Assembly: GCA_030390025.1 (NCBI GenBank)
Contig: CM059432.1
Span: forward strand, 65,288,001 to 65,352,000
Length of the DNA stretch: 64,000 nt
Source of the DNA: Squalus acanthias
Taxonomy: Eukaryota
Direction: 5' to 3'
Part shown: in pieces, positions 915 through 64,000 of the stretch
Position numbering within the stretch: position 1 is the stretch's first letter
Layout: the number at the start of each line of letters is the position of its first letter
Notes under the pieces: model-generated
What the model was told of the DNA's origin: nothing
What the model saw: the letters and a program-made list of their open reading frames with translations, nothing else
Databases searched by the model: none
Made by a program: the position numbers and the translations under genes

Positions 915-1440
915 CTAGAATAAAATAGAGATGTAAACAGTCAAAACGGTCTCAGACTAATTGAAGGAATGGCTGTATTACATCTTTGTGAACTCTTCTG
1001 CTTAACTTTGGGTAAAACACAAAGATCAGGGGAAAGAATTTCTCTGGTTGCTGTGTGTAGCAAAATTGTAAATATATTGAAGCAAAAATCTGTGGCTGTT
1101 TTGGCACATTCCCAGTGTAACTTCAGTGGAAGTAGATTGGAAAGGCGAGAAAGTGTACCAGGATCAAGATACACCTTGGCACAAAAATTTTGGGGGGGCG
1201 CAGGTTGGAATCCATATGCCTAAATGGTGAGGCCTGAGGTGCCCCTGATATTGGGAGTCGGGCATCAGCCAGCAAAGTGTAAACAAAGATTGGGCCAATG
1301 CTAGCATTGTAGCTACCCTCAGGCAAGTGAGGGCCTGGGAGGGAGAAACGGAGGCCGGGGAGGGGGGTGCGGGAATCCAAAGCTTGGGGGGAGGGGGTCA
1401 TCAGAGGCAGTGTCAGGTCGGGAGATCAGAGACCAGAGAG

Positions 1441-2362
1441 GGGGATTGGAGGCTGGAGAGGGGGAATCGGAGGCTGGAGAGGGGGATCGGAGGCTGGAGA
1501 GGGGGATCGGAGGCTGGAGAGGGGGATCGGAGGCTGGAGAGGGGGATCGGAGGCTGGAGAGGGGGATCGGAGGCTGGAGAGGGGGAATCAGAGGCTGGAG
1601 AGGGGGAATCAGAGGCTGGAGAGGGGGATCGGGAGGCTGGAGAGGGGGGAATCAGAGGCTGGAGAGGGGGATCGGAGGCTGGAGAGGGGGATCGGAGGCT
1701 GGAGAGGGGGATCAGAGGCTGGAGAGGGGGATCGGAGGCTGGAGAGGGGGAATCAGACACCAGAGAGGGGGATCGGAGGCTGGAGAGGGGGATCGGAGGC
1801 TGGAGAGGGGTATCGGAGGCTGGAGAGGGGGCTCGGAGGCTGGAGAGGGGGATCGGAGGCTGGAGATGGGGATCGGAGGCTGGAGAGGGGGATCGGAGGC
1901 TGGAGAGGGGGATCGGAGGCTGGAGAGGGGGAATCAGATGCCAGAGAGGGGGATCGGAGGCTGGAGAGGGGGATCGGAGGCTGGAGAGGGGGATCGGAGG
2001 CTGGAGAGGGGGATCGGAGGCTGGAGATGGGGATCGGAGGCTGGAGAGGGGCATCGGAGGCTGGAGAGGGGGATCGGAGGCTGGAGATGGGGATCGGAGG
2101 CTGGAGAGGGGGATCGGAGGCTGGAGAGGGGCATCGGAGGCTGGAGAGGGAGAATCAGAGGCTGGAGAGGGGGATCGGAGGCTGGAGAGGGGGATCGGAG
2201 GCTGGAGAGGGGGATCGGAGGCTGGAGAGGGGGATCGGAGGCTGGAGAGGGGGATCGGAGGCTGGAGAGGGGGATCGGAGGCTGGAGAGGGGGATCGGAG
2301 GCTGGAGAGGGGGATCGGAGGCTGGAGAGGGGGATCGGAGGCTGGAGAGGGGGATCGGAGGC
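1441..2362 (+). repeat. G-rich minisatellite, ~20-bp unit GGAGGCTGGAGAGGGGGATC
   Basis: About 45 tandem units with occasional variants (gaatcaga, gatggg, ggcatc); explains the long low-complexity ORFs in several frames. Confidence 0.97.
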
Positions 2363-2654
2363 CGGCCAGGGGAATCAGTAGCTGCGTCTGGAGGGAAATC
2401 AGAAGCCAGGTCAGGGGTAGTGGCAGTGATCGGGGGTGGGTGAGAGGCGGCCCATGTTCTTTAAATGTGGGGTTGGGAGGAGCACTCCTGCTCCTCCTAC
2501 CTCCACATTCAAGTAAGTGCATTTCAAAAACTTACCTTTTTGGTAGCAGGAATTCCCACGGTCTAGTTTTATTGAGTGTAGCCAATGCTGGCATTCACCC
2601 CATAACTAAGATGTTAATTTTTAATGGGGAAATGTGTTCTTCTGAATTACCACA

Positions 2655-44946: not shown

Positions 44947-46827
44947 GGCTGGAATTTTACGAGCGCTGAGAGAATGGGTTCGGAGGCGAGTCTGCTGTCA
45001 AAATAGAAAAGATTGACAACGGGTCGGGAATCCGCTGTCAAGCCGCCTCCACGTGAGTCTCCCAAGTGTTGGGTCTGTTAGCGCTGAACAGACCCGACAC
45101 CAAGCGGCAGGGCAGACAAGTTAGATCATTAAATGCATTGTTAAGAGGCAATTAAATCTTATTTTAAGCTTACCTTTAGATTTTTAGAGTTTGTCAACGG
45201 CTTCCCCGCTGCTCGGGGATCACGTCAGGTAAGGAGGTCGGGTGTTGTGTCAGCATGGGATGATTTACTTACTTGACAGCTGCAAATGGTCTATAAAAGC
45301 TTCCATTTCATAGGTGTTCACTTTCCAAGGTTAGAAGCTCTTGCTTACTGCATTTGGAAGACAGATTGAGCTTTATGCAGCTAGCAAGTGTTTGAAGCAA
45401 ACTCTCTATCCAGTGTCACCTCATTGGAACAACCTCTCTCACCCTTGACAGATCGCTTCTGTCATCTCATTCTCACCTCCCATCTATTCCATCAGCATCA
45501 GTGCCCTTGAAAAAATCCATCTTGGTCCACAGAATCCCAACATGATCAGCGCCAACACCAACATCACCGGGCACACCAGCAGCACCAACAACAACACCAA
45601 CCTTCTCCGCAATCACTTGATGCTGCACAGGACATCAACACCCGACCACATTGCTTCCGGGAGGCCAGGGATGGCCTCACCATGGCCAGATTTACTTCAC
45701 GTGACACTGCACACCCTGGCTGCCACATGGTGCGCCAGGTTAACACCACCCCACACTAAGACAATAAAGCATCCCTACAATGCCCAAGCCATTCCTTTCA
45801 CACACATCACCATAGCAAGGAGGGGAGGGGGGGCGGGGAGGTACCATTATGTCTCACTGTTCACTGCAACTCATTAAGCCACTTCCAATGGTGCACACAG
45901 ATCTGTCCAAGAACGCAAAGTGTTGAAAATAAAGATTTCAATGTTTGACAGCACATTACCAGAAACTTCACATGAACATTGGCTAAAACACACAAGTGCC
46001 TACCCTGTGTGTTGTTAGTTGGTATGCTTGCAGTAGGATGAGGGTAAGGGTGAGGGGTGGCTAGTGAGATGGGGAAGTGATAATGTAGATAGAGAAGGAT
46101 GGATGGAGGTGAAAGGTCAGTTGGTGTGAGTAAAGATGTGCAGGAGTAGGGTAGGGAAGACAGAGTGATGTGGATGTGATGAGTGGCACACCAGGATGAG
46201 GTTGAGTATGGCTTGGCAGTAACGTTTCGTGATCTACTGAGATTATTGAAAGGTTTGCGCCACTGCTGCCTGGTCCTCCTGATGACATTCCTGCTTGTGC
46301 CCTCCTGTGCAATGTGCAACCAGGCTGCGTAGGTCTCTTCCGCCCATTGGAAGTGAAGAGAACCTCCCTGCATGCATATGGAGGGAGTCATTGAGAGCCT
46401 GGGTGCAGTCATTCACCTTTGTGCTGTGATTGTCAGTGTTTGCAGCACCTCAAAACTGTAGAACACTGACAGCACAACTGTCAAAATCAATTTGGACATG
46501 GCCCCTTTAAGGAAACCGGCTGATGACGCGTCATCAAATGACGTCATCAGACCCGCTTCCTTTTAATTGGCCGGGAATCTCGCTGGGCGGGCTTAAAATC
46601 AATGTAAAATCACTTGGAGAGAGTGGGCTGGAGCAGGCAGCGGGCTGGGACTGCACTACCGACCCCCCCAGCCACCCCGGACCCCGGACCCCGGACCCCG
46701 GACCCCGGACCCCGGACCCCGGACCCCGGACCCCGGACCCCGGACCCCGGACCCCGGACCCCGGACCCCGGACCCCGGACCCCGGACCCCGGACCCCGGA
46801 CCCTCCTCGGTCGGTGAAATCGCAGCC
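44947..46827. mobile_element. Non-autonomous PIF/Harbinger element inserted in CR1
   Basis: Ends GGCTGGAATTTTAC / GTGAAATCGCAGCC; collinear with 27018-30114 but lacks Myb exons 2-3; CR1 resumes gagttagtatgcagg. Confidence 0.85.
46673..46803 (+). repeat. Perfect 7-bp tandem repeat (ACCCCGG)n
   Basis: About 18 exact units just inside the right TIR of the Harbinger element. Confidence 0.97.
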
Positions 46828-52258: not shown

Positions 52259-52409
52259 TTAACCAACAGTTTAAAGCATAATAAACAGAGGAAAAATAGA
52301 TGATTGAGAGACAATGGCAAGTATACTGGTGCCTTCTTTCATAATATATAGAATTGTGTATGGATGTGATCTGTATTATCATTGGCATAGTTAATACAAA
52401 TTCCTCTTG

Positions 52410-53431
52410 TGTAGCAGTTGGCGCAGATGCCATGGATTTTTAGATTATGAACCCTTATTAAAAACTGGATATGCTGCTTGGGGTGGGGGGGGGGGGGGGG
52501 GGGGGCGGCGGGGGTGGTGGCGGGGAAGCAGTGAAAAACCACTCAAGCTGGAGATGACTCATTCATATGGAAACGAACTGTCCTTGGGAACAATGGCCCG
52601 AGAGGCCCACTCCCAAGTCTTGATTAAGTCTTGATGACTCATTGTTCTGGTCAAGATGAACTCGTTATTTTAATCGGCTGGAAGATCGAAATGAGTTCAA
52701 AGACCATTCAAACCTGAGAGGAAGCTTGAAGACCATTCCATTAAAACCACAGACAACGGTCTGTGTATTGGAGGGGTATATTAGAGAGCAGTTTGGATAG
52801 CTCTCTCTCTCTCTCTCTCTCTCTCCTGCCCTCCACACAACGGAACGTCAAGAGGAGCAGAGCCTTGCTCTTCCAACCAAGACCGACTTCGACTAAGGCT
52901 GGGACTCACATGCCGCAAGGTCGGTACGGAACCAGGTAACCGAGACATACAGGAGGAAGCCGCAAGCAAGATCAAAAGGGCAATCTAGGTGAGCATTGCC
53001 AAGCCTACACGCCCACAAGATCACTTAGCTGTGTGAGGGGGTGCCTGTATGTTCCTACCAAACCAGAGGGGGTTTAGTGTTGGAAGGGTCCTGTGATAGT
53101 TTAGTTCACGGGAGGGTGTTTTTAGGCCGTGGTATGTCAGCATGGCAGGGGCTTGTTGGACAAGTCAGGGTTGTACTGTTTTAAATTGTACTGTTGTGTT
53201 CACACTGTGTACTGTATGCGAGTGGAGTGGTTTTTGTCAACCTTAATAAACACTGTACGGGTGAGCCCGAAAACGCTGTCCGTGTTCCAATCTGTCCTCA
53301 GTAATCCCTATCATCCAGAACTTGTAGTAAGGGGGTTTGTGTGCTCGCTATGGGTGGGGCAAAACCACTTACAATCATTGGCGATTGCGGCAGGGGCCAT
53401 AGGAAATTGGCCACCGCAAAAAACGGTTACA
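52410..53431 (+). repeat. 5' LTR (1022 bp)
   Basis: TGTAGC...GTTACA termini; TATA-like TATATTAGA at ~52796; AATAAA at 53245-53250; homologous to 61115-61346 plus 63101-63856. Confidence 0.92.
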
Positions 53432-53435
53432 GATT

Positions 53436-53452
53436 TGGCGACCGCGGCAGGA
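53436..53452 (+). promoter_or_regulatory. Primer binding site, tRNA-Arg(TCG)
   Basis: TGGCGACCGCGGCAGGA, 4 nt after the LTR, is complementary to ..TCCTGCCGCGGTCG-CCA, the 3' end of vertebrate tRNA-Arg(TCG) as I recall it. Confidence 0.85.
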
Positions 53453-53472
53453 TGCTAGGTTGTGGATTAGAT

Positions 53473-55136
53473 ATGGACGGTTTGGAGGGCAAGAGTTCCG
53501 GAATGGAGGACAGAGGTTCCTCCTATGTATTTAAAAAGGTTAACGTATCCCAGCAATGGGTGCTGGAGATGTTGTGCTCTGAGAGTCCCCAGGATAGGGC
53601 CGCAGAGTGGACAGGGAGCAAGGAGCACAGGAGTCCAAAGAGAAGGTGATTTGGCTCCTGTGCTTCCAAAAGCAAGTTCAACTGCTCTGGGAGCAGGTTG
53701 AAAAGCTCAAACACGAGCTGAAGGAGTCTGAAGACAAGTCCGACGTGAGGGGGATAGCTGGGAGTAGATTAGTGGAGGAGTTGCCCGAGGAAAGACAGGA
53801 AAGACGCGCACAGGAAGAGACATCCCGTAATATGGGGGAATACCTGCGGTGCCAGGTTATGGAGGCCAGGTTAAATGAGCAGGCCTTACGGGAGGAGAAC
53901 GCAAGATTAACAACGAGAGCTGATGGTTTGGAGGGTCAGCTAAGGGACATTAAAATAGCTCATAAGGTAGCTAGAAGTAGGGGCTATGAAAACTCTGATC
54001 ACGGTCCCTGCGAAGAAAGGATTAAAAAATTGACCCAAGCCTTGTCTGGGGCCAGAGGCATGGTCTATTTAATGGCACCTGGGGAAACCTGGGTGGAGTG
54101 GGATGAGGAGTGTCAGGAAACAGAGGATAAGGTTCAGGACAGGGAAGTCCCACCGGCGCCGGAAGCGCCACCGAGACCAATGTATCCTCTGCGGCAGCAA
54201 AAGTACGGTCCACTCACACCAAACGGTGACCAGGGCCCGCTGCAGAGCGATTACGTGGTCCCATTCACCACCCTGCAGTTGCAAGCCATGGTAGCAGAGT
54301 TGCCTAAACTAAAACAGGACGGGGACCCCTCAGTTCACTTTACAGAGGTCGAGCAGGTAGGGGGATCAACGGGTGTAGTGAGGGTGAGATCCACAGGCTG
54401 ATGCTGCTCTCCCTTGACGGGAAACTGTATCAGAGCCTGTCCGCAGCCACAAACGGGGCGAGGCACCACAGAGGGGTTGAAAGAGGAGATCCTGAGAGTC
54501 ATGGGGCATACCCAGGGTAGTCCGTTCTCACAAGTGGAACAGTTGGCCGGCGAGGCACCGGCTGCATTTGCGGACAGGCAATGGCCGGTGTACGCAAAGG
54601 CAACTGGAGGTGTGCCAGACCGCGCGCAACTGGTAGGGGTCCCCAGAAATCACTGGCTCAGGACCCTGGTAGCAAACAGCCTGCCACGGATTAAAGCCAA
54701 GGCAGAAGCATGGTTTGACTCCAAGAACCTCGCGAACACGGAGGCAGGCGTGCTCCGGAAATTGGGCTTAGCTTTTAGGGCCGGTTCCGGGGAGTAGGTC
54801 AAACACAAGGGGAGGGTACATGGGATGAAGGCCAGTAAGGGGGATAGGAAGGAATGGCGTCAGGAAGGGGGTAACGCCAACAAGTCTAAGACTTGTTTCA
54901 AGTGTGGGAAGACAGGACACTGGAGGTGGGATTGCCCGGCCCAAAAGGGGGGGTCAGGTCAAGGGGGTCCTCCCGTGCGAAAACCCCAGGTCACCGAGGC
55001 GAAGGAGGCGACCGATGAACTGTTTGATGTTCTGGTGGCCGCCCTTCGCATGGTGCTGGGGAAGGTCAAAGGAAGGCTAGACGCTGCCGTGAGCAACATA
55101 ACGCCGGCCTCACCCACATGTCCGCCTTCCTCCTGA
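53473..55136 (+). pseudogene. gag: gag: N-terminal coiled coil, capsid-like region, one CCHC zinc knuckle
   Basis: ORF pieces 53473-, 53607-54401, 54414-54797 and 54825-55136; CFKCGKTGHWRWDC at 54894-54935. Confidence 0.85.
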
Positions 55137-58100
55137 CTAGAACGCGCCCAGCCTGAGTACCTGTGTCCGCTCACTTTTGATGAGTAGGACAGGCCCTGTG
55201 TTGAGATGGGGGTGGAGACGGTGCAGGGGAGATATTTGGTGGACACCAGAGCTTCCAGCACGGTGGTCCATTCGGAAGACCCGACCAATTCACCCTGGTC
55301 TAACAAGGTCCCATTTAGCCTAATGGAATTCACAGGGAACGAGCAGGTGGGGGCAATGTCCAAACCCCTGAGAATAGAGCTAGGGTCCCTCTGCACCACG
55401 TGCAAGTGCGTGCTAATGAAATGGGAGCAACCAGGGTGTGGAGATTCCTCGGGGCTGATTTCATGTTAGCCAACTGGGTCATTGTGGACCTGAGGAATCA
55501 CTGCCTGTGGGGGGCAGTGGTCTCGGACAAGACAGAGGAGGTGATAGTAATCCCCAGAGATAAGGGAGGAGGGGTAGTGTATGCACCATGAAACCCAAAG
55601 GGAGTTACGACCTGGAACAGTTGGTTAGTAGCGCCCCAGCCCAGTACCAGGCGAATGTACGGGACAACCTTGCCGCATTCGCCACCCATAAACACGATTG
55701 TGGCAGGGTGACCGGGGTAGAGGTCCGGGTGCAAGGGGACCCCATGTCACGGCCACAAAAGCAGTATAGTTTCCCCCGGGAGGCAGAAGCCAACTTGGAG
55801 GCGGCACTGGGATCCCTGGTAAAACAGGGGGTGTTGAGACTAATAGCCACCCACGTGAACTCACCACTCTGGCCGGTGAAGAAACCCGACCAGTCGTGGA
55901 GAGCCACCGTGGACTATCGGGTCCTCAATAAGAACATCCCAGCTTGCGCGCCCACAGTCGCAGCTGTCGCCGATCTGATAGGGAGCATTCCAGCAACCGC
56001 AACCACATTCACAGTGCTGGATATCTCCAACGGGTTTTGGTCGATTCCCCTCAGACGGGAAGACCAATACAAGTGTGCATTCACTTTTAAAGGGCAGCAG
56101 TATACATGGACATGCCTTCCCCAGGGGTTCCACAACAGCCCCTCCATATTCCACCAATGCATGGCAGATGCATTAAAAGGCTTCAGCCGACCCCACCAGT
56201 TAATCCAGTACGTGGACGACCTGCTTTTGTTCTCCGCAGAGGGGGAGAACCATGGGCTACTACTGGACGAGCTGCTAAAGCTATTGCAGGAGGGGGGGTT
56301 CAAGGTCAACCCCAAGAAAGCCCAGATCGGCCAGGAGGAAGTCAAATTCCTCGGGCTGACCGTAAGGGCTGGTTAAAGGGCCATAGACGAAGCTAGGAGG
56401 AAGGCAGTACAGGAGCTACCAGCCCCCAAGAATGTGACCGGGGTAAGGTCTTTTCTGGGACTCACAGGGTACTGCCGGGACTTCATAGAGGGTTACGCAG
56501 CCACGGCAGCCCCTCTGCTTCGGCTCCTCCGCAAGGGAGTCGAGTGGGAGTGGGATCAGAACTGCCACTCTCCTCAAAGGGGATTTGCAGACTGCATCCG
56601 CATTGGGAGCCATTAACGGTGGGGAAGAATTCTTCTTAGAGGTAGTAGCCAGCGGGGATAGCTTGAGTGCAGCGTTGCTCCAGGAGCGACACGGCAAGCT
56701 ACGGCCCGTGGCCTACTCATCTAGGGTTCTCACCGAGGTAGAACGGGGATATTCCAACTGCGAGAAGCATCTCCTGGCCACGCATTGGGCTGTAAAGCGC
56801 TCACAGCCCTTTACAGGATCATCCCTGATAGTTCTACTCACCCACCATACCCCCACTTGGATATTGTTGGACGGGAGAATAAAGGACGGGACAGTGAGCA
56901 GTGCTCGCATTGCCCGCTGGACTTTATTGTTCTCGCAGATGAACTTGAGAGTGCAGGGGTTGACCGAGCCCAAGCTAGCAGCCAACATGATTTACCCAGG
57001 GACGGCCCACACGTGTACAGTAGAAGGGGTGTGGGATGTAGATGAAGGATTCTGGGCCGGGATACACCCGACGGGCCAGGACATCTATAAAGACGTGTTC
57101 TATCGTGAAGGGGGAGCGTCTCACCGGGTGCAAAATCTATGACCCTACGGCTAAAATAGCGAAGGCCATTAAACTCCCAACACCCTGAGCACTCAGCACG
57201 CCGAACTGGTGGCGGTGGCGTACGTGGTCACCCACCCCGACGAGTTCCCCACCCACTACACCATTTGCTCAGACTCTATGTTCACGTGCAACTCATGCAC
57301 GGAATACTTGGCAATCTGGGCCAGGCGCGGATTCAAGTCCGCAGATAGGAAGCCCCTAGCAACAGCACCGCTGCTAGGTAAAATTTTGGAGGCCACAGGC
57401 ACCCAGGGAGATCACTATATTCACAAAGTTAAAGCCCATTCAAAGACAGAGCCCAAGTGGGAGGGCAACCAAAAGGCAGATGAGCTGGCCAAACAGGGGG
57501 CCAGGGAAGGAGTATTCTGGGATCCCTACAAAGCAGGTCCGGTAGCCGCAATCCGGGACAAGGGAGGCACACAGCAGATAGCTTTGGCCCCCGACTTAAA
57601 GCAGGTCCAAGTCCAGGATCCCGCCCTTAAGGCCGTCCTGGTAAAGAGAGAGAATGGGGAGTCCATAGAAGGTCCATTCGGGGCAGCGGACATTAGTATC
57701 AAAGAGGGGATGCTTTTCAAAGGGGATCGGTGGGTAGTCCCAGCGCAGCACCGAGAGGAGTTCCTACAGTTGGCCCATGGGGGCCCGGGAGCGGGACACC
57801 CAGGGCCGGAAACTACTTGACAAAGGGTAGAGGAGGCAGGGTGGTGGCCCCAGCTCAGGGAGGATGTCTGAGTTTTCTGTGCGCACTGTTTGGTGTGCGC
57901 AGCCAATAACCCCGATCCGCAGCACAGGAAAGCCCCCATAGGACACACCAGGAGGGTAGAGGGGCCATGGCGGTCCCTGCAGGTCGATTTCATCGGACCA
58001 CTGCCCACCACTAAAGCAGGCAACAAGTACTGTTTAGTCCTGGTGGACGTATTTTCCAAGTGGGTGGAAGCCTTCCCCTGCTGAGCAGCCACGGCACTAG

Positions 58101-58997
58101 CAACAGCTAGAATCCTGGTGAGGGAAGTGTTCTCCCGGTGGGGGCTGCCACAGGTCGTGGAGTCCGACCAAGGGAGTCATTTCACAGGGCAGGTGATGCA
58201 GGCCACCTTAACTCTTGGGAATACAAGGGAAGTGGCATGTGGCTCACAGCCCCCAGTCATCGGGGATTGTGGAGCGCATGAACCGGACACTGAAAGAAAG
58301 ACTGAGGAAGGAGATAAGCCCGTTCCCGCAGAGATGGGACGAGGTCTTGCCTCTAGTCTTAATGTGTGTCCGGGCCAGCCCCTCCAGAAGCACAGGGTAG
58401 TCGCCACACGAGCTTATGACCGGGAGGATTCTGCGCACCCCAACCCATGTGTTGGCGCCGGTCCACACCGAAGCGCAGGTCAGGGAGGTAAACCGGGACA
58501 GGTTTGTCCAGAATCTGTACGAGACTTTAAAACAGATTCACTGGCAGGCAGCCAGTAACCTGGGGAGCCAGTACCAGAAAAATCGGCTGCTGTTAGAACC
58601 CCAGAGAACCCACGAGTGGGAGGTGGGAGACCAGGTAATGGTCCGTAATTTCGCCCGAGTAGGGGCGTTCGAGCCGCTGTATATGGGGCCCTATAATATC
58701 GTGGATAACGCGAGCCCCATAGTATATGCAGTAAAACTCCCGAAACGCACAAAATGGTTTCATGTAAACCAGTGCAAGTTGTTTAACCCCGAGGTGGGGA
58801 AAACAAAGGCCAAGAGGCACCAGGGCACAGCCATGAGCCTGGTGGACGCGGGTCTTCCTCCCATGGTGTGGGACGATGATGACCCGGAGGACGGGGCGGT
58901 AAGGAGGAGCAGTCGGGTCCCACGGCCTAGGGTGCCGTGGATGCCTCCCTTCTTGCCGACCGCGAGCCACAAGAGGCCTCAATGGGAGAGGTCTTAA
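55137..58997 (+). pseudogene. pol: pro-pol: protease, RT, tether RNase H, RNase H, integrase with GPY/F
   Basis: YLVDTRAS and FLGADF (protease); NSPLWPVKKPD, VLDISNGFW, LPQGFHNSP, YVDD (RT); PVAYSSRVL (tether); QHAEL, SDS, KVKAH, GNQKADELAK (RNase H); [33 protein letters not shown] (integrase). Confidence 0.93.
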
Positions 58998-59156
58998 ATG
59001 GGGCGCTCGTTAATGCGGCAGGGAACACTGTAAATATTTTGTAAATAATCAAAACCAGATCCGTGGAGGAAAACCCTCGCACAGAACGGAACTGTTTCGC
59101 TTTTGTTTTGGCAGGGAACCAAAGGAGATCAGAGGAACAGGGAATTTACGTGTGTA

Positions 59157-60916
59157 TGTGGGGGTCGGAACGGGTCTGCCCGGCAGGTGTGTCGATTGCC
59201 TTCTTGCGGCGGTGGCAGGATTCCGGGGCCGGGATCGGATGGGATCAGAGTGGGGACTCCTGCGTGATCCCAGACCCTCCCAACACAGTAAATTCCACAG
59301 AACCGGTAGCACACCAGAAGCCCCTGCCCACAGCCCCACCGGTACAGGAAACACAGATTAGTTGCCCCGCCACCACACCGGGACCGAGGAATGGGTTAGT
59401 GTTCATCCCGACCGGCAAGATCTTGTACCAAGACGTCCACTACGAAGTCGCATCGGTCATTCTAAATTTAACTCGGGTATAGCTGCCCCAGTGGTGTCCG
59501 GTAGAAGTTACGGGGACGTGAATCGGGAAAGTCTGTATGATTTAACGGTAAACCATCGCGTTGGTTCGGGGAGATATAGACGGGGGGTATTTAATGATGC
59601 GGCTACAGCCTTCAGCATAGGCACGTCCATTATCAACAGTATGGATGATGCACAGTTGCAGATGCAGGTCAACACCTTAAGGGACCAGCTGCGAAAGATA
59701 CTGGGGGAGGGTAACGTGCTAGAGGGGTCGGAGTTACGGGAGGACCAGGCTATGACGATACATTTAAAGGACGTCATAGCCGAGCTGGAGGCGCACGCTC
59801 AGACGATCAATAGTTTGATCAGGGAGGATCAGAATGCCTCGGCGCAGGCAGCAAAAAAAACCCGATGCGTGTGTGTTGTACGGTGCGTGGCTGCTGAACG
59901 AAGGGCACAGTAATTTGGAGGACCTACAGCAAGGTCGCGTCTCTTTGTGGGTCAGCAACCGGCACCTCACTGCGCTCAGCCCGTACGAAAATTTAATGAG
60001 CCCGTGCCAACTCCGACTGGCCTCAGCGGCATACCCGGTCCCAGTTGATTGTGGCCAGTCCAACCACACTGTAATGGGGACTGTACTCCGGATGCCAGTA
60101 ATGGGCGGGTCACCGCGGCCGGCACCGGTATACCGAGTAGAGAATATTGGCGTCCTAAGGGACGGGGTGCACATGCGACATCATGGGGCCCCACCGTTTG
60201 TTGTAAAGTGGGAGAACGCCATGACCGGCACTGACCTCAATGGATGCCAAAGCAGGGGCGCGCACGTGGTGTTGTGTCCCCAGCATTTGAATGCGTTTAA
60301 TTGGCCGGTGTGCGGGTTTGAAGCAGAGGGTGCGGAGCCCATTAATTGCACCATGGAGGTGATGGCCCAAAGCCACGTTCCACCTCAGGTAGCATATGCG
60401 GGCAGAGGGACGTACTGTGTCACGACAAGCGTGGACCAGTACTGGGTACACAACGACACTTGGTGCCCGGTCACCGATAAGACTTTCTGCTTCAAACCCC
60501 ACACAGAAGTTCAGGTGGCTCAAGAGCGCATCATTCCCATTCCAGAGCCCACCACGGTACACCTCACGGTGAACGACACGGTACAGGACCTGCAGCAATA
60601 CGTAACATGGTTCAGGTATGAAATTCCTCCTCTGCCCGAACACCTCACAAAATTAATAAAGGAAGTTGAACTCTCCCAAAAGCATTTCTATACCCTTGAG
60701 CAATGGAACAGGGAAACAAGGAATGAGATAAAAAAATTGGTTTCTTCGCCATGGTGGGACATCGGTCTGAATATCGAGATTCCCCCATGGATTCGTGTGA
60801 TTTCTCATGTGATTGTAGTAGTGCAATGTGTGTTAGTGTTTTACCTTCTCCGGTTATCATGCAGAAAGCGAAGTAAAACACTCCGAAACCGGTGGCAAGC
60901 TTTGATTAAAGAATAG
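59157..60916 (+). pseudogene. env: env-like class I fusion glycoprotein
   Basis: Three ORF pieces; furin site RYRR (59572-59583), fusion-peptide-like GVFNDAATAFSIGTSII, heptad region, Cys-rich region, N-glycosylation sequons, C-terminal TM (VISHVIVVVQCVLVFYLL) and basic tail. Start codon uncertain. Confidence 0.85.
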
Positions 60917-61103
60917 CCCGGAGTTGACTGTCTGTTTGTATATATACCTGTAACTGTGATGTGATTTGTTGTATAAAGTGTGAGATACAGGACCCTGGGG
61001 TAAAATTTGATGTACGGTTTGGTTGGGATATACAGTGCGCCTCCCGCAGCGGAAGACGACAGAACTTTTGATGATATTTCTGTTTGGGAAAAGTTGAAAT
61101 ATC

Positions 61104-61112
61104 AAAGGGGGG
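61104..61112 (+). promoter_or_regulatory. Polypurine tract
   Basis: AAAGGGGGG followed by CC and the TG start of the 3' LTR. Confidence 0.8.
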
Positions 61113-61346
61113 CCTGTAGCAGTTGGCACAGACGCCATGGATTTTTAGATTATGAACCCTTATTAAAAACTGGACAGGCTGCTTGGGGGTGGGGAAGCAG
61201 TGAAAAATCACTCAAGCTGGAGATGACTCATTCGTATGGAAACGAACTGTCCTTGGGAACAATGGCCCGAGAGGCCCACTCCCAAGTCTTGATTAACAAG
61301 GCTGATGACTCATTGTTCTGGTTAAGATGAACTCGTTATTTTAATC

Positions 61347-63090
61347 CGATAGCAAAATACTGCGGATGCTGGAAAGTTGAAACAACAACAAAAAACGCTG
61401 GAAAAATTCAGCAGGCCAGGCAACATCCATGGAGAGAGAAACAGAGTTAACGTTTCAGGTCGAAACCCTTCGTCAGAACTGAGAAAAAAGCAGGAAATGA
61501 AACAGATAAAAAAGCAAGGGGGAGGCTGTCGTCTTCCGCTGCGGGAGGTGCACTGTATATCCCAACCAAACCGTACATCAAATTTTACCCCAGGGTCCTG
61601 TATCTCACTTTATACAACAAATCACATCACAAAGATGTGCGGGTTAGGTTGATTTGGCTATGATAAATTGACCCTTAGTGTTAGGGGGGATTAAATGCGT
61701 GGGGTTACGGGGATAGGGTGGGATATGTTAGGGGGGTTTAAATACGTGGGGTTACGGGGATAGGGTGGGATATCTGTACTGTGGGGATTCTGTGATTCAC
61801 AGTTACAGGTATATATGTGGTAGGGGCCGAGGTTATGATCTGAAATTGTTGAACTCGATATTGAGTCTGGAAGGCTGTAAAGTGCCTAAACGAAAGATGA
61901 GGTGCCGTTCCTCGAGCTTACACTGAGCTTCAGTGGAACAATGCACGAGGCTGAGGACAGTGAGGTCTGAGTGGAAGTGGAGAGGTGAATTAAAGTGACA
62001 AGCGACCGGAAGCTCGGGGTCACCCTTACGGACTGAACGGAGGTGTTCCGCAAAGCGGTCACCCAATCTGCGTTTGGTCTCCCCAATGTAGAGGAGACCA
62101 CATCGTGAGCAGCGAATACAGTATACTAGATTGCAAGAAGTACAAGTAAATCGCTGTTTCACCTGGAAGGGGTGTTTGGGGCCCTGGAGAGTGGGAAGGG
62201 GGGAGGTATAAGGGCAGGTGTTGCATCTCCTGCGCTTGCACGGGAAGGTGCCGGGCGAGGGGGAAGGGGTGCTGGGTGTGATAGAGGAGTGGACTAGGGT
62301 GTCTCGGAGGGAGCGGTCCCTACGGAATGCTGAAAGGGGAGGTGAGGGGAAGATACGTTTGGTGGTGGGATCACGTTGGAGGTGGCGGAAATGGCGGAGG
62401 ATGATCCGTTGAATGTGGCGGTTGGTGGGGTGAAAGGTGAGGACAAGGGGAACTCTATCGTGGTTCCGGGAGGGAGGGGCCGGGGTGAGGGCAGAAGTGT
62501 GGGAGATAGAACGGACACGGTCGAGGGCCGTGTCGACCACGGTAGAGGGGAATCCTCGGTTGAGGAAAAAGGAAGACATGTCGGAAGCACTGGTATGGAA
62601 GGTGGCATCGTCAGAGCAGATGCGGCGGAGATGGAGAAACTGGGAGAACGGAATAGAATCCTTACAGGAGGCGGGGTGGGAGGAAGTGTAGTCCAGGTAG
62701 CTGTGGGAGTCAGTGGGCTTGTAGTGAATGCTGGTCAATAACCTATCCCCAGAGATGGAGACGGAGAAGTCGAGGAAGGGAAGGGAAGAGTCGGAGATGG
62801 ACTATGTGAAGGTGAAGGCAGGGTGGCAAAGTGAATGAAATTGTCTAGTTCAGGGCGAGAGCAGGAAACGGCACCGATACAGTCATCAATGTACCGGAAA
62901 AAGAGGTGAGGGAGGGGACCCGAGTAGGACTGGAACAAAGAGTGTTCCACATATCCCACGAAAAGGCAGGCATAGCTAGGACCCATGCGGGTACCCATAA
63001 CAACACCTTTGATTTGGAGGAAATGAGTGGAGTCAAAGGAGAAGTTGTTCAATGTGAGAACAAGTTCAGCCAGGCAGAGGAGGGTGGCGG
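61347..63090 (-). mobile_element. 5'-truncated Penelope-like element (RT C-terminus plus GIY-YIG endonuclease) with chimeric 3' region
   Basis: QIKGVVMGTRMGP, RYIDD, YKPTD, CxxxxCxxC linker, VYCIRCSRCGLLYIGETKRRL; 10-bp TSD TATTTTAATC (61337-61346) / TATTTTACTC (63091-63100). Confidence 0.92.
61445..61480 (-). ncRNA. Minimal type I hammerhead ribozyme in the Penelope tail
   Basis: Minus strand AGTT-CTGACGA-AGGGT-TTCG-ACCT-GAAACGTT-AACT: intact core, stem II with UUCG loop, stem I AGTT/AACT. Confidence 0.8.
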
Positions 63091-64000
63091 TATTTTACTC
63101 GGCTGGAAGATCGAAATGAGTTCAAAGACCATTCAAACCTGAGAGGAAGCTTGAAGACCATCCCCTGAGGCCATGTGTCCATTAAAACCACAGACAGCGG
63201 TCTTTGTATTGAAGGGTTATATTAGAGAGCAGTTTGGATAGCTCGCTCTCTCTCTCTCCTGCCCTCCACACAACGGAACGTCAAGAGGAGCAGAGCCTTG
63301 CTCTTCCAACCGAGACGGACTTCGACTAAGGCTGGGACTCGCATGCCACAAGGCCGGTACGGAACCAGGTAGCCGAGACGTACGGGAGGAAGCTGCAAGC
63401 AAGATCAAAAGGGCAATCTAGGTGAGCATTGCCAAGCCTACACACCCACAAGATCACTTAGCTGTGTGAGGGGGTGCCTATATGTTCCTACCAAACCAGA
63501 GGGGGTTTAGCGTTGGAAGGGTCCTATGATAGTTTAGTTCACGGGAGGGTGTTTTTAGGCCGTGGTAAGTCAGCACGGCAGGGGCTTGTTGGACAAGTCA
63601 GGGTTGTACTGTTTTAAACTGTACTGTTGTGTTCACACTGCTCGTACTGTATGCGAGTGGAGTGGTTTTTGTCAACCTTAATAAACACTGTACGGGTGAG
63701 CCCGAAAACGCTGTCCATGTTCAAATCTGTCCTCAGTAATCCCTATCGTCCAGAACTTGTAGTAAGGGGGTTTGCGTGCTCACTACGGGCGGGGCGAAAC
63801 CACTTACAATAATTGGCGATTGCGGCAGGGGCCATAGGAAATTGGCCACCGCAAAACTTGTGACTATGTCTAGAAAATATGAAATACATATTTCCCACTT
63901 TCCCTTGAATAGGGTTATTCAGTACAATGGGGAAATGTTATCACCTTTGGTTCTTTTGCTCCATGTTTTTCATTCAGCAGCCTGATGATATAAGTAGTCC

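What the first reader, a model, noticed from the sequence alone, without database searches (positions are those of the whole stretch)
55128..55210. gag-pol junction uses a UGA-CUAG readthrough context
Seen: gag ends TGA (55134-55136) followed by CTAG, and the protease frame (ATG 55206, YLVDT) is in the same frame; one further in-frame TAG at 55185 may be a decayed TGG. Known: UGA-CUAG is a strong stop-codon readthrough signal (alphavirus UGA-CUA, AQP4, OPRL1), while gamma/epsilon retroviruses read through UAG and most others frameshift. Inference: this lineage makes Gag-Pol by UGA readthrough.
Basis: partly seen in the sequence, partly recalled or inferred. Interest (0 to 1): 0.72.

Follow-up and report, generated by a model that had tools for sequence, protein, structure and literature searches.

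The report
UGA readthrough junction in fish retrovirus
A dead retrovirus copy in a fish genome separates its coat gene from its enzyme genes by a 'leaky' stop signal (UGA-CUAG) known from mosquito-borne viruses and some human genes, while its closest named relative uses a different leaky signal at the same spot.

Summary
TGA (55134-36) plus CTAG ends gag of a broken provirus, and the protease follows in frame. Contigs from 4 runs (four organism labels, three studies) show no listed variant at 55132-41 and no net frame change across the junction. The second stop (55185) is private to this copy. A 33%-identical full-length Gag ends at the same position. The codons between the stop and ATG 55206 align with the protease N-terminus of relatives, so that ATG is not the start. 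The nearest named virus is snakehead retrovirus (SnRV), which has UAG-GGC at the equivalent site. Best reading (0.85): Gag-Pol is made by type II (UGA-CUAG) readthrough. This is inferred, not measured. The main rival is a foamy-like splice acceptor at the same TAG. In-frame UGA junctions are already proposed for some fish and frog retroviruses, and UGA-CT for fission-yeast retrotransposons. I found UGA-CUAG noted for no retrovirus. Yet UGA-CUA sits at 6 of the 7 lokiretrovirus junctions I could see, and UGA-CUAG in a bullfrog provirus, in published supplements. A special RNA structure is not supported. New variant of a known mechanism; interest 0.47.

The parts
52410..53431 (+). 5' LTR
   Evidence: blastn against the 3' copy covers 52410-53421; end read from the sequence
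53436..53453 (+). primer-binding site (TGG start); tRNA-Arg(UCG) assignment is recalled, not tested
   Evidence: sequence
53473..55136 (+). gag, broken: frame change near 53635, stops at 54399-54401 and 54795-54797
   Evidence: ORF list; tblastn of Gag P0031 53491-55118; start ATG read from sequence
54894..54935 (+). single CCHC zinc knuckle, 66 residues before the gag stop
55134..55140 (+). gag stop TGA plus CTAG: type II readthrough context
55137..55205 (+). in-frame spacer and protease N-terminal segment upstream of the first in-frame ATG
   Evidence: aligns without gaps to P0004 and with P0007 (blastp E 8e-5 and 2e-5 on a three-sequence target, stretch includes the catalytic motif)
55160..55193 (+). 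possible hairpin about 24 nt after the stop (weak)
   Evidence: z -2.3, 6 of 300 shuffles, window chosen after the fact; four longer windows not significant
55180..55182 (+). out-of-frame ATG, the first ATG after the stop
55185..55187 (+). second in-frame stop, private to this copy
   Evidence: table 3
55206..55208 (+). first in-frame ATG, inside the protease domain, 12 codons before the catalytic Asp
55137..58997 (+). pro-pol (protease Asp codon 55242-44, RT, tether, RNase H, integrase), broken by several stops and frameshifts; the catalytic protease motif is altered in this copy
   Evidence: Pfam; tblastn of P0001 and P0004
59045..60916 (+). probable env in three ORF pieces, C-terminal hydrophobic helix
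   Evidence: position and ORFs; no Pfam hit at cut-off; weak atlas lead
61104..61112 (+). polypurine tract
   Evidence: sequence
61115..61346 (+). 3' LTR, first piece
   Evidence: blastn
63088..63856 (+). 3' LTR, second piece after a 1.7-kb insertion; 92.4% identical to the 5' LTR over 777 columns
   Evidence: blastn

Best explanation
The element is a dead endogenous copy of an SnRV-like retrovirus family. In its active members, most ribosomes stopped at UGA 55134 and released Gag. A few percent inserted an amino acid at the UGA, helped by the CUAG that follows, and went on in frame through a short spacer into protease, RT, RNase H and integrase. This sets the Gag to Gag-Pol ratio. Shown: position, frame and conservation of the stop and its context. 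Inferred: readthrough itself, its rate, and any downstream stimulator.
For: (1) No listed variant at 55132-55141 and no indel 55042-55184 in 4 runs; 8 of 32 shown records bridge the TGA with 31 or more letters each side, in all 4 runs. (2) Divergent families start to match at or 2 nt before the TGA: loose ends before 55132 (6, 6, 6 contigs) and before 55134 (4 contigs); summed depth rises about 7- to 320-fold between 55116-28 and 55142-67. (3) Gag P0031 (33% identical) aligns to 55118 at residue 614 of 619, so its ORF ends at about 55133; knuckle-to-end is 66 in the window, 68 in P0031, 64 in P0032, P0046 and P0047 (one cluster). (4) SnRV locus L001: in-frame TAG-GGC 68 residues after the knuckle and 32 codons before the protease Asp, against 66 and 36 here. 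(5) The codons between TGA and ATG 55206 align with P0004 and P0007, which are open there. (6) The first ATG after the stop is out of frame. (7) UGACUAG supports at least about 1.3% readthrough in 23 human genes (PMC13517186), 0.5-6.4% for four genes in one reporter. (8) Lokiretrovirus junctions keep UGA-CUA in frame while the next base varies.
Against: No RNA, ribosome or protein data: no RNA holder was listed. 82 variant rows were hidden, so minor variants at the motif are not excluded, and seven invariant bases alone are not unusual (p 0.35). The quiet 42-nt stretch after the stop is not significant once its choice is allowed for (permutation p 0.50). The same TAG is the most acceptor-like AG of the region in this copy (11 of 14 pyrimidines). 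No significant extended stem-loop. P0056 ends only 5 residues after the knuckle; I treat it as truncated or broken but cannot show it. P0004 has Gag and Pol in one chain with Gln at the aligned position; it is a gene model whose DNA I could not see. No DNA of the junction was obtained for P0031, P0032 or P0001.
Confidence: 0.85

Rival explanations
1. Foamy-like spliced pol: the TAG of TGACTAG is a 3' splice acceptor, and Pol is made from a spliced RNA, perhaps with a start in a small upstream exon.
For: Foamy virus Pol is the best solved-structure match of the RT (153 bits against 107 for MLV). The AG at 55139-40 has 11 of 14 pyrimidines upstream in this copy. Divergent families lose similarity just upstream of the motif, as an intron end could.
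Against: An acceptor does not need TGA or the C after it, yet both are kept. Purines stand at -6 and -5. The upstream loose ends of other families are C/A-rich and hold an AG (table 7, read by eye). The first ATG downstream is out of frame. Spumaviruses have pol in another frame with its own start (PMC8278194), whereas here the frame is kept. SnRV has an in-frame stop at the same place.
Confidence: 0.08
2. Pol is made separately by re-initiation or internal initiation at ATG 55206.
For: The ATG has G at -3 and +4, and P0001 has a Met at the same position.
Against: It would cut off the conserved PL..RP.V segment of the protease N-terminus; P0004 and P0007 have Val and Cys at that position. An out-of-frame ATG lies upstream. 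Pol would not be joined to Gag for packaging (established for orthoretroviruses, recalled).
Confidence: 0.03
3. The stop is a mutation of this copy or of a non-autonomous subfamily, and active viruses had a single gag-pol ORF.
For: The copy has many other stops and frameshifts. P0004 is a fused chain. 10 of 24 lokiretrovirus entries are annotated as one gag-pol gene.
Against: Private changes show as near-100% rows (55021, 55066, 55186 and others); none at 55134-36. Full-length Gag relatives and SnRV stop at the same place.
Confidence: 0.02
4. Ribosomal frameshift or selenocysteine insertion at the junction.
For: UGA can encode selenocysteine (established knowledge).
Against: The protease is in frame 0, so no shift is needed; the only slippery-like heptamer is 190 nt upstream and in the wrong phase. 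Rfam finds no family, SECIS included, in 52300-64000.
Confidence: 0.02

Closest known systems
Snakehead retrovirus (SnRV) and SnRV-related ERVs (clade Huo of PMC6001957; CmiERV lineage I of PMC4422223)
   Same: Closest named RT: 36 of 47 residues in the core block against 28 (CoEFV), 27 (WDSV), 25 (a lokiretrovirus), 23 (HERV-L), hand count on rows shown. 42% identity over 269 aa. One zinc knuckle, in-frame stop at the equivalent position.
   Different: SnRV has UAG-GGC (type III-like); this family has UGA-CUAG (type II). SnRV is sister to the window's clade with weak support only (80/16).
Type II readthrough: Sindbis virus UGA-CUA and human UGA-CUAG genes (AQP4, OPRL1, MDH1, VDR)
   Same: Same stop and same +4 to +7 context.
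   Different: Here it sits at a retroviral gag-pol junction. No extended stem-loop of the alphavirus kind could be shown.
XtERV-S and the African bullfrog provirus (class III, PMC8278194)
   Same: In-frame TGA between gag and pol, suppression proposed. The bullfrog copy in supplement file 5 reads TGA-CTA-GAG at the equivalent site.
   Different: ERV-L-related by the authors' trees. A Xenopus copy in file 3 reads TGA-CAG. The context is not discussed in the passages seen.
Lokiretroviruses (PMC7947760)
   Same: In the supplement, in-frame UGA-CUAG at 4 gag-pro junctions, UGA-CUAA at 2, and a sense codon followed by CUAA at 1 (frames read by eye).
   Different: A different RT lineage (25 of 47). 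The paper's main text has 0 hits for readthrough, frameshift or stop codon.
Fission-yeast Ty3/gypsy Tj1, Tcry1, Tosmo1-3 (10.1101/2022.12.06.519325)
   Same: Conserved in-frame TGA-CT between gag and pol, read as programmed readthrough.
   Different: Retrotransposons of fungi, not retroviruses.

Membership tests
SnRV-related retroviruses (clade Huo) | RT closer to SnRV than to other named retroviral groups | tested here: met
   36 of 47 against 23-28 for four other named rows (hand count); 42% over 269 aa
SnRV-related retroviruses (clade Huo) | Supported clade with SnRV in an RT tree | tested here: inconclusive
   80/16 support; no foamy, ERV-L or loki rows were available for the tree
SnRV-related retroviruses (clade Huo) | Gag with zinc knuckle and in-frame stop before the protease | tested here: met
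   Gag relatives P0031 and P0032 hit SnRV Gag weakly (E 2e-5, 5e-4)
Lokiretrovirus | RT of the loki clade | tested here: not met
   25 of 47 in the core block; loki rows carry DVASGFW and RCPFGY motifs absent here
Lokiretrovirus | Env similar to paramyxovirus F (PF00523) | tested here: not met
   no PF00523 hit at E 0.05 for the three env pieces; the gene is broken, so sensitivity is reduced
Foamy viruses | Pol in another frame with its own start; Gag without zinc knuckle (second point recalled) | tested here: not met
   pol in the gag frame and a CCHC knuckle present
ERV4 / ERV3 | No zinc finger in Gag (PMC4299795 Table 1) | tested here: not met
Type II stop-codon readthrough (Beier-Grimm) | Hexanucleotide UGACUA or UGACGG at an in-frame stop | tested here: met
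Type II stop-codon readthrough (Beier-Grimm) | Measured readthrough that depends on the context | not testable with these tools
   needs a reporter or ribosome profiling
Type II stop-codon readthrough (Beier-Grimm) | Downstream stimulatory stem-loop (conditional for UGACUA) | tested here: inconclusive
   157-nt fold z -0.66; one of five windows z -2.3; no set of natural copies for a covariation count

The most novel reading that the evidence does not exclude
UGA-CUA(G) readthrough is a widespread, overlooked way of making Gag-Pol in aquatic retroviruses. It occurs in this SnRV-like family, in lokiretroviruses and in a class III frog provirus. Within the SnRV-like clade the signal has switched between UAG-GGN (type III) and UGA-CUAG (type II) at one homologous site. 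Readthrough, possibly of type II, would then be old in retroviruses and not a gamma/epsilon speciality.
Probability: 0.35. Interest if true: 0.68.

Novelty: new variant of a known kind. Interest (0 to 1): 0.47.

Why it matters
The mode of pol expression is used to classify retroviruses, and the 2026 review lists UGACUA only for alphaviruses and one insect virus. This family adds a retroviral case, next to a relative that uses another signal at the same site. It gives natural pairs for asking how readthrough signals turn over, and it explains gag-pol stops that published lokiretrovirus annotations leave unexplained. Readthrough at gag-pol is itself well known, so the surprise is moderate.

Tried and rejected
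No whole genome is held for this window, so copies could not be counted in an assembly. No related loci came from protein-led scans of viral contigs or metagenome contigs; only the motif scan returned one locus. A search with the 112-aa Gag end for longer proteins found nothing. No RNA holder was listed, which is no evidence on expression. My first assignment to lokiretroviruses was rejected after the RT comparison. Exceptional nucleotide conservation after the stop: nominal p 0.015-0.04, but 0.50 by permutation, so not claimed. An extended stem-loop was not significant. By eye, loose-end letters of a divergent family could form the 55160-55193 stem with other bases, but this was not computed and is confounded by the conserved peptide. 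The Env model from a single sequence failed (pLDDT 36), so no fold search was run. The elephant-shark supplements (28.5 k characters held) gave no hit for the junction motifs. Earlier scan notes by sequence and by look-alike place were empty. 13 of the 17 TGACTAG hits in the loki supplement are not at junctions.

Full report
What is there. The finding lies in a provirus that runs from a 5' LTR at 52410-53431 to a 3' LTR split by a 1.7-kb insertion (61115-61346 and 63088-63856). The LTRs are 92.4% identical over 777 columns, with 33 mismatches. gag, pol and env are all broken by stops and frameshifts. Pfam finds a zinc knuckle, RT, tether, RNase H and integrase pieces in retroviral order. The host looks like a cartilaginous fish; this rests on recalled repeat types and on unchecked notes of the scan.

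The observation. TGA stands at 55134-55136, CTAG at 55137-55140, and the frame continues to the protease motif with one more stop at 55185-55187. Only 1 of 1159 TGA triplets on the + strand of the window is followed by CTAG; base composition gives about 0.004 for one chosen site.

Is the stop inherited or private? I laid contigs of 4 of the 24 listed runs (four organism labels, three studies) on 54960-55330. Of 122 variant rows the 40 best supported were shown, the weakest at about 22% share. None lies in 55132-55141. Changes private to this copy show up as near-100% rows, and 55186 is one: 4720 of 4720, 2027 of 2027, 575 of 613 and 1590 of 1590 of the laid depth differ. No indel is listed from 55042 to 55184; a paired insertion and deletion at 55185-55189 in two contigs keeps the frame. 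8 of the 32 records shown bridge the TGA with at least 31 letters on each side, in all 4 runs; 1977 records were not shown. More distant families begin to match at 55132 (6, 6 and 6 contigs) or 55134 (4 contigs), and summed depth rises from 1210, 928, 126 and 84 just upstream to about 15,000, 7,000, 1,170 and 26,000 at 55142-55167. Depth is no copy number, and in two runs it rises much further over the protease core. Limits: variants under about 22% are invisible, seven quiet bases alone are unremarkable (p 0.35), and the 42-nt quiet stretch is not significant after allowing for its choice (permutation p 0.50).

Protein evidence. A 619-aa Gag, 33% identical, aligns to 55118 at residue 614, so it ends where the window's TGA stands. 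Knuckle-to-end distances are 66 (window), 68 (P0031) and 64 (P0032, P0046, P0047, one cluster); P0056 ends after 5 and is the exception. The codons between the TGA and ATG 55206 align with P0004 and P0007 as PL..RP.V, the segment before the catalytic motif; reading it as the first protease strand is recalled from HIV protease. Starting at 55206 would drop it, and the first ATG after the stop (55180) is out of frame.

Which virus group? The RT's best protein hits are coelacanth and frog 'NYNRIN-like' models and unnamed contig proteins. I first took it for a lokiretrovirus and dropped that: over a 47-residue core block the window matches SnRV at 36, CoEFV 28, WDSV 27, a loki 25 and HERV-L 23 (hand count on rows shown). 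A motif scan fetched one viral contig whose RT block equals the SnRV row. It has an in-frame TAG-GGC 68 residues after the knuckle and 32 codons before the protease Asp, against 66 and 36 here; RT identity is 42% over 269 aa. In a 21-row RT tree the window joins P0001 (100/99) inside an 8-row clade (98/92), and SnRV is sister to that clade with weak support (80/16). Foamy, ERV-L and loki rows were not available; P0009 was left out of that tree and P0015-18, 21-24 and 29 of both trees.

Mechanism. The simplest account is readthrough: Gag ends at UGA, and a small share of ribosomes go on in frame. UGACUAG gives at least about 1.3% readthrough in 23 human genes and 0.5-6.4% for four genes in one reporter. 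A downstream structure is only conditionally needed for UGACUA, and I cannot show one: z -0.66 for 157 nt, and one of five windows reached z -2.3. The strongest rival is a splice acceptor at the same TAG, which has 11 of 14 pyrimidines upstream in this copy, given that foamy Pol is the best solved match. Against it, an acceptor needs neither the TGA nor a kept reading frame, and SnRV has an in-frame stop at the same site. A small upstream coding exon is not excluded. No frameshift signal in the right phase and no Rfam family was found.

What is known. PMC13517186 (passages) lists UAG for gamma- and epsilonretroviruses, UAGGGC for SnRV, and UGAAGA, UGACGA and UGAAGU for three fish and frog viruses; it names UGACUA for CHIKV, SINV and PSIV and has 0 hits for 'loki'. 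PMC8278194 (passages, supplement passages) proposes TGA suppression for XtERV-S; a Xenopus copy reads TGA-CAG and the bullfrog copy TGA-CTA-GAG. PMC7947760 (2 of 4 parts read, term search, supplement passages; the file is cut) never mentions readthrough in its main text. Of its 24 entries I could see 7 junctions: 4 UGA-CUAG, 2 UGA-CUAA, 1 sense codon plus CUAA, frames read by eye; 10 are annotated as one gag-pol gene. Fission-yeast gypsy elements keep TGA-CT, read as readthrough (passages). PMC3835772 found no pseudoknot after the SnRV stop (passage). Also seen: PMC4422223 (part 1 of 2, supplements searched), PMC4299795 and PMC6001957 (passages), PMC12440569, PMC9040795 and PMC12690878 (term searches), bioRxiv 2026.07.14.738498 (passages). 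Ten searches found no paper noting UGA-CUAG at a retroviral gag-pol junction. The library lacks most subscription papers, the original SnRV paper and Repbase were not seen, and bioRxiv supplements are closed, so prior notice is possible.

Verdict. The feature is real and inherited. Readthrough is the best explanation (0.85) but unmeasured. It is a new variant of a known mechanism: a type II signal where the nearest named virus has a type III-like one. The bolder case, that UGA-CUA(G) is a common overlooked gag-pol signal of aquatic retroviruses that swaps with UAG-GGN, I put at 0.35. Interest 0.47.

Noticed in passing
window 59045-60916: The probable env has no Pfam hit; the atlas links its last 365 aa to chuvirus-type (PF24664, class III) fusion proteins, score 0.93, but with low recognition (1634). 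An SnRV-like virus with such an env would be odd. The single-sequence model failed.
   Followed up: partly
window 53379-53396 and 53436-53453: A second PBS-like sequence lies about 57 nt upstream of the real one, inside the LTR, and is also present in the 3' LTR; the LTR end looks duplicated.
   Followed up: no
window 61347-63087: Insertion in the 3' LTR holding a short repeat, an 83-nt inverted copy of 60980-61062 (99%) and a minus-strand ORF with RT-tail and GIY-YIG-like look (Penelope-like, recalled).
   Followed up: no
P0004 (coelacanth gene model), residues 219-274: Gag and Pol lie in one chain, with Gln-Gly exactly where the window has UGA-CUA and like SnRV's UAG-GGC; it may be an opened amber junction or a modelling artefact.
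   Followed up: partly
PMC7947760 supplement: UGA-CUA in frame at 6 of 7 visible lokiretrovirus gag-pro junctions, not mentioned in the paper's main text; the pol genes are annotated from arbitrary downstream starts.
   Followed up: partly
window 55207-55324: Two runs show more than 100-fold higher depth over the protease core than over gag, pointing to a very abundant related family that diverges upstream of 55190.
   Followed up: no
window 1296-2374 and 46646-46820: A 20-nt tandem array and a 7-nt GGACCCC array.
   Followed up: no
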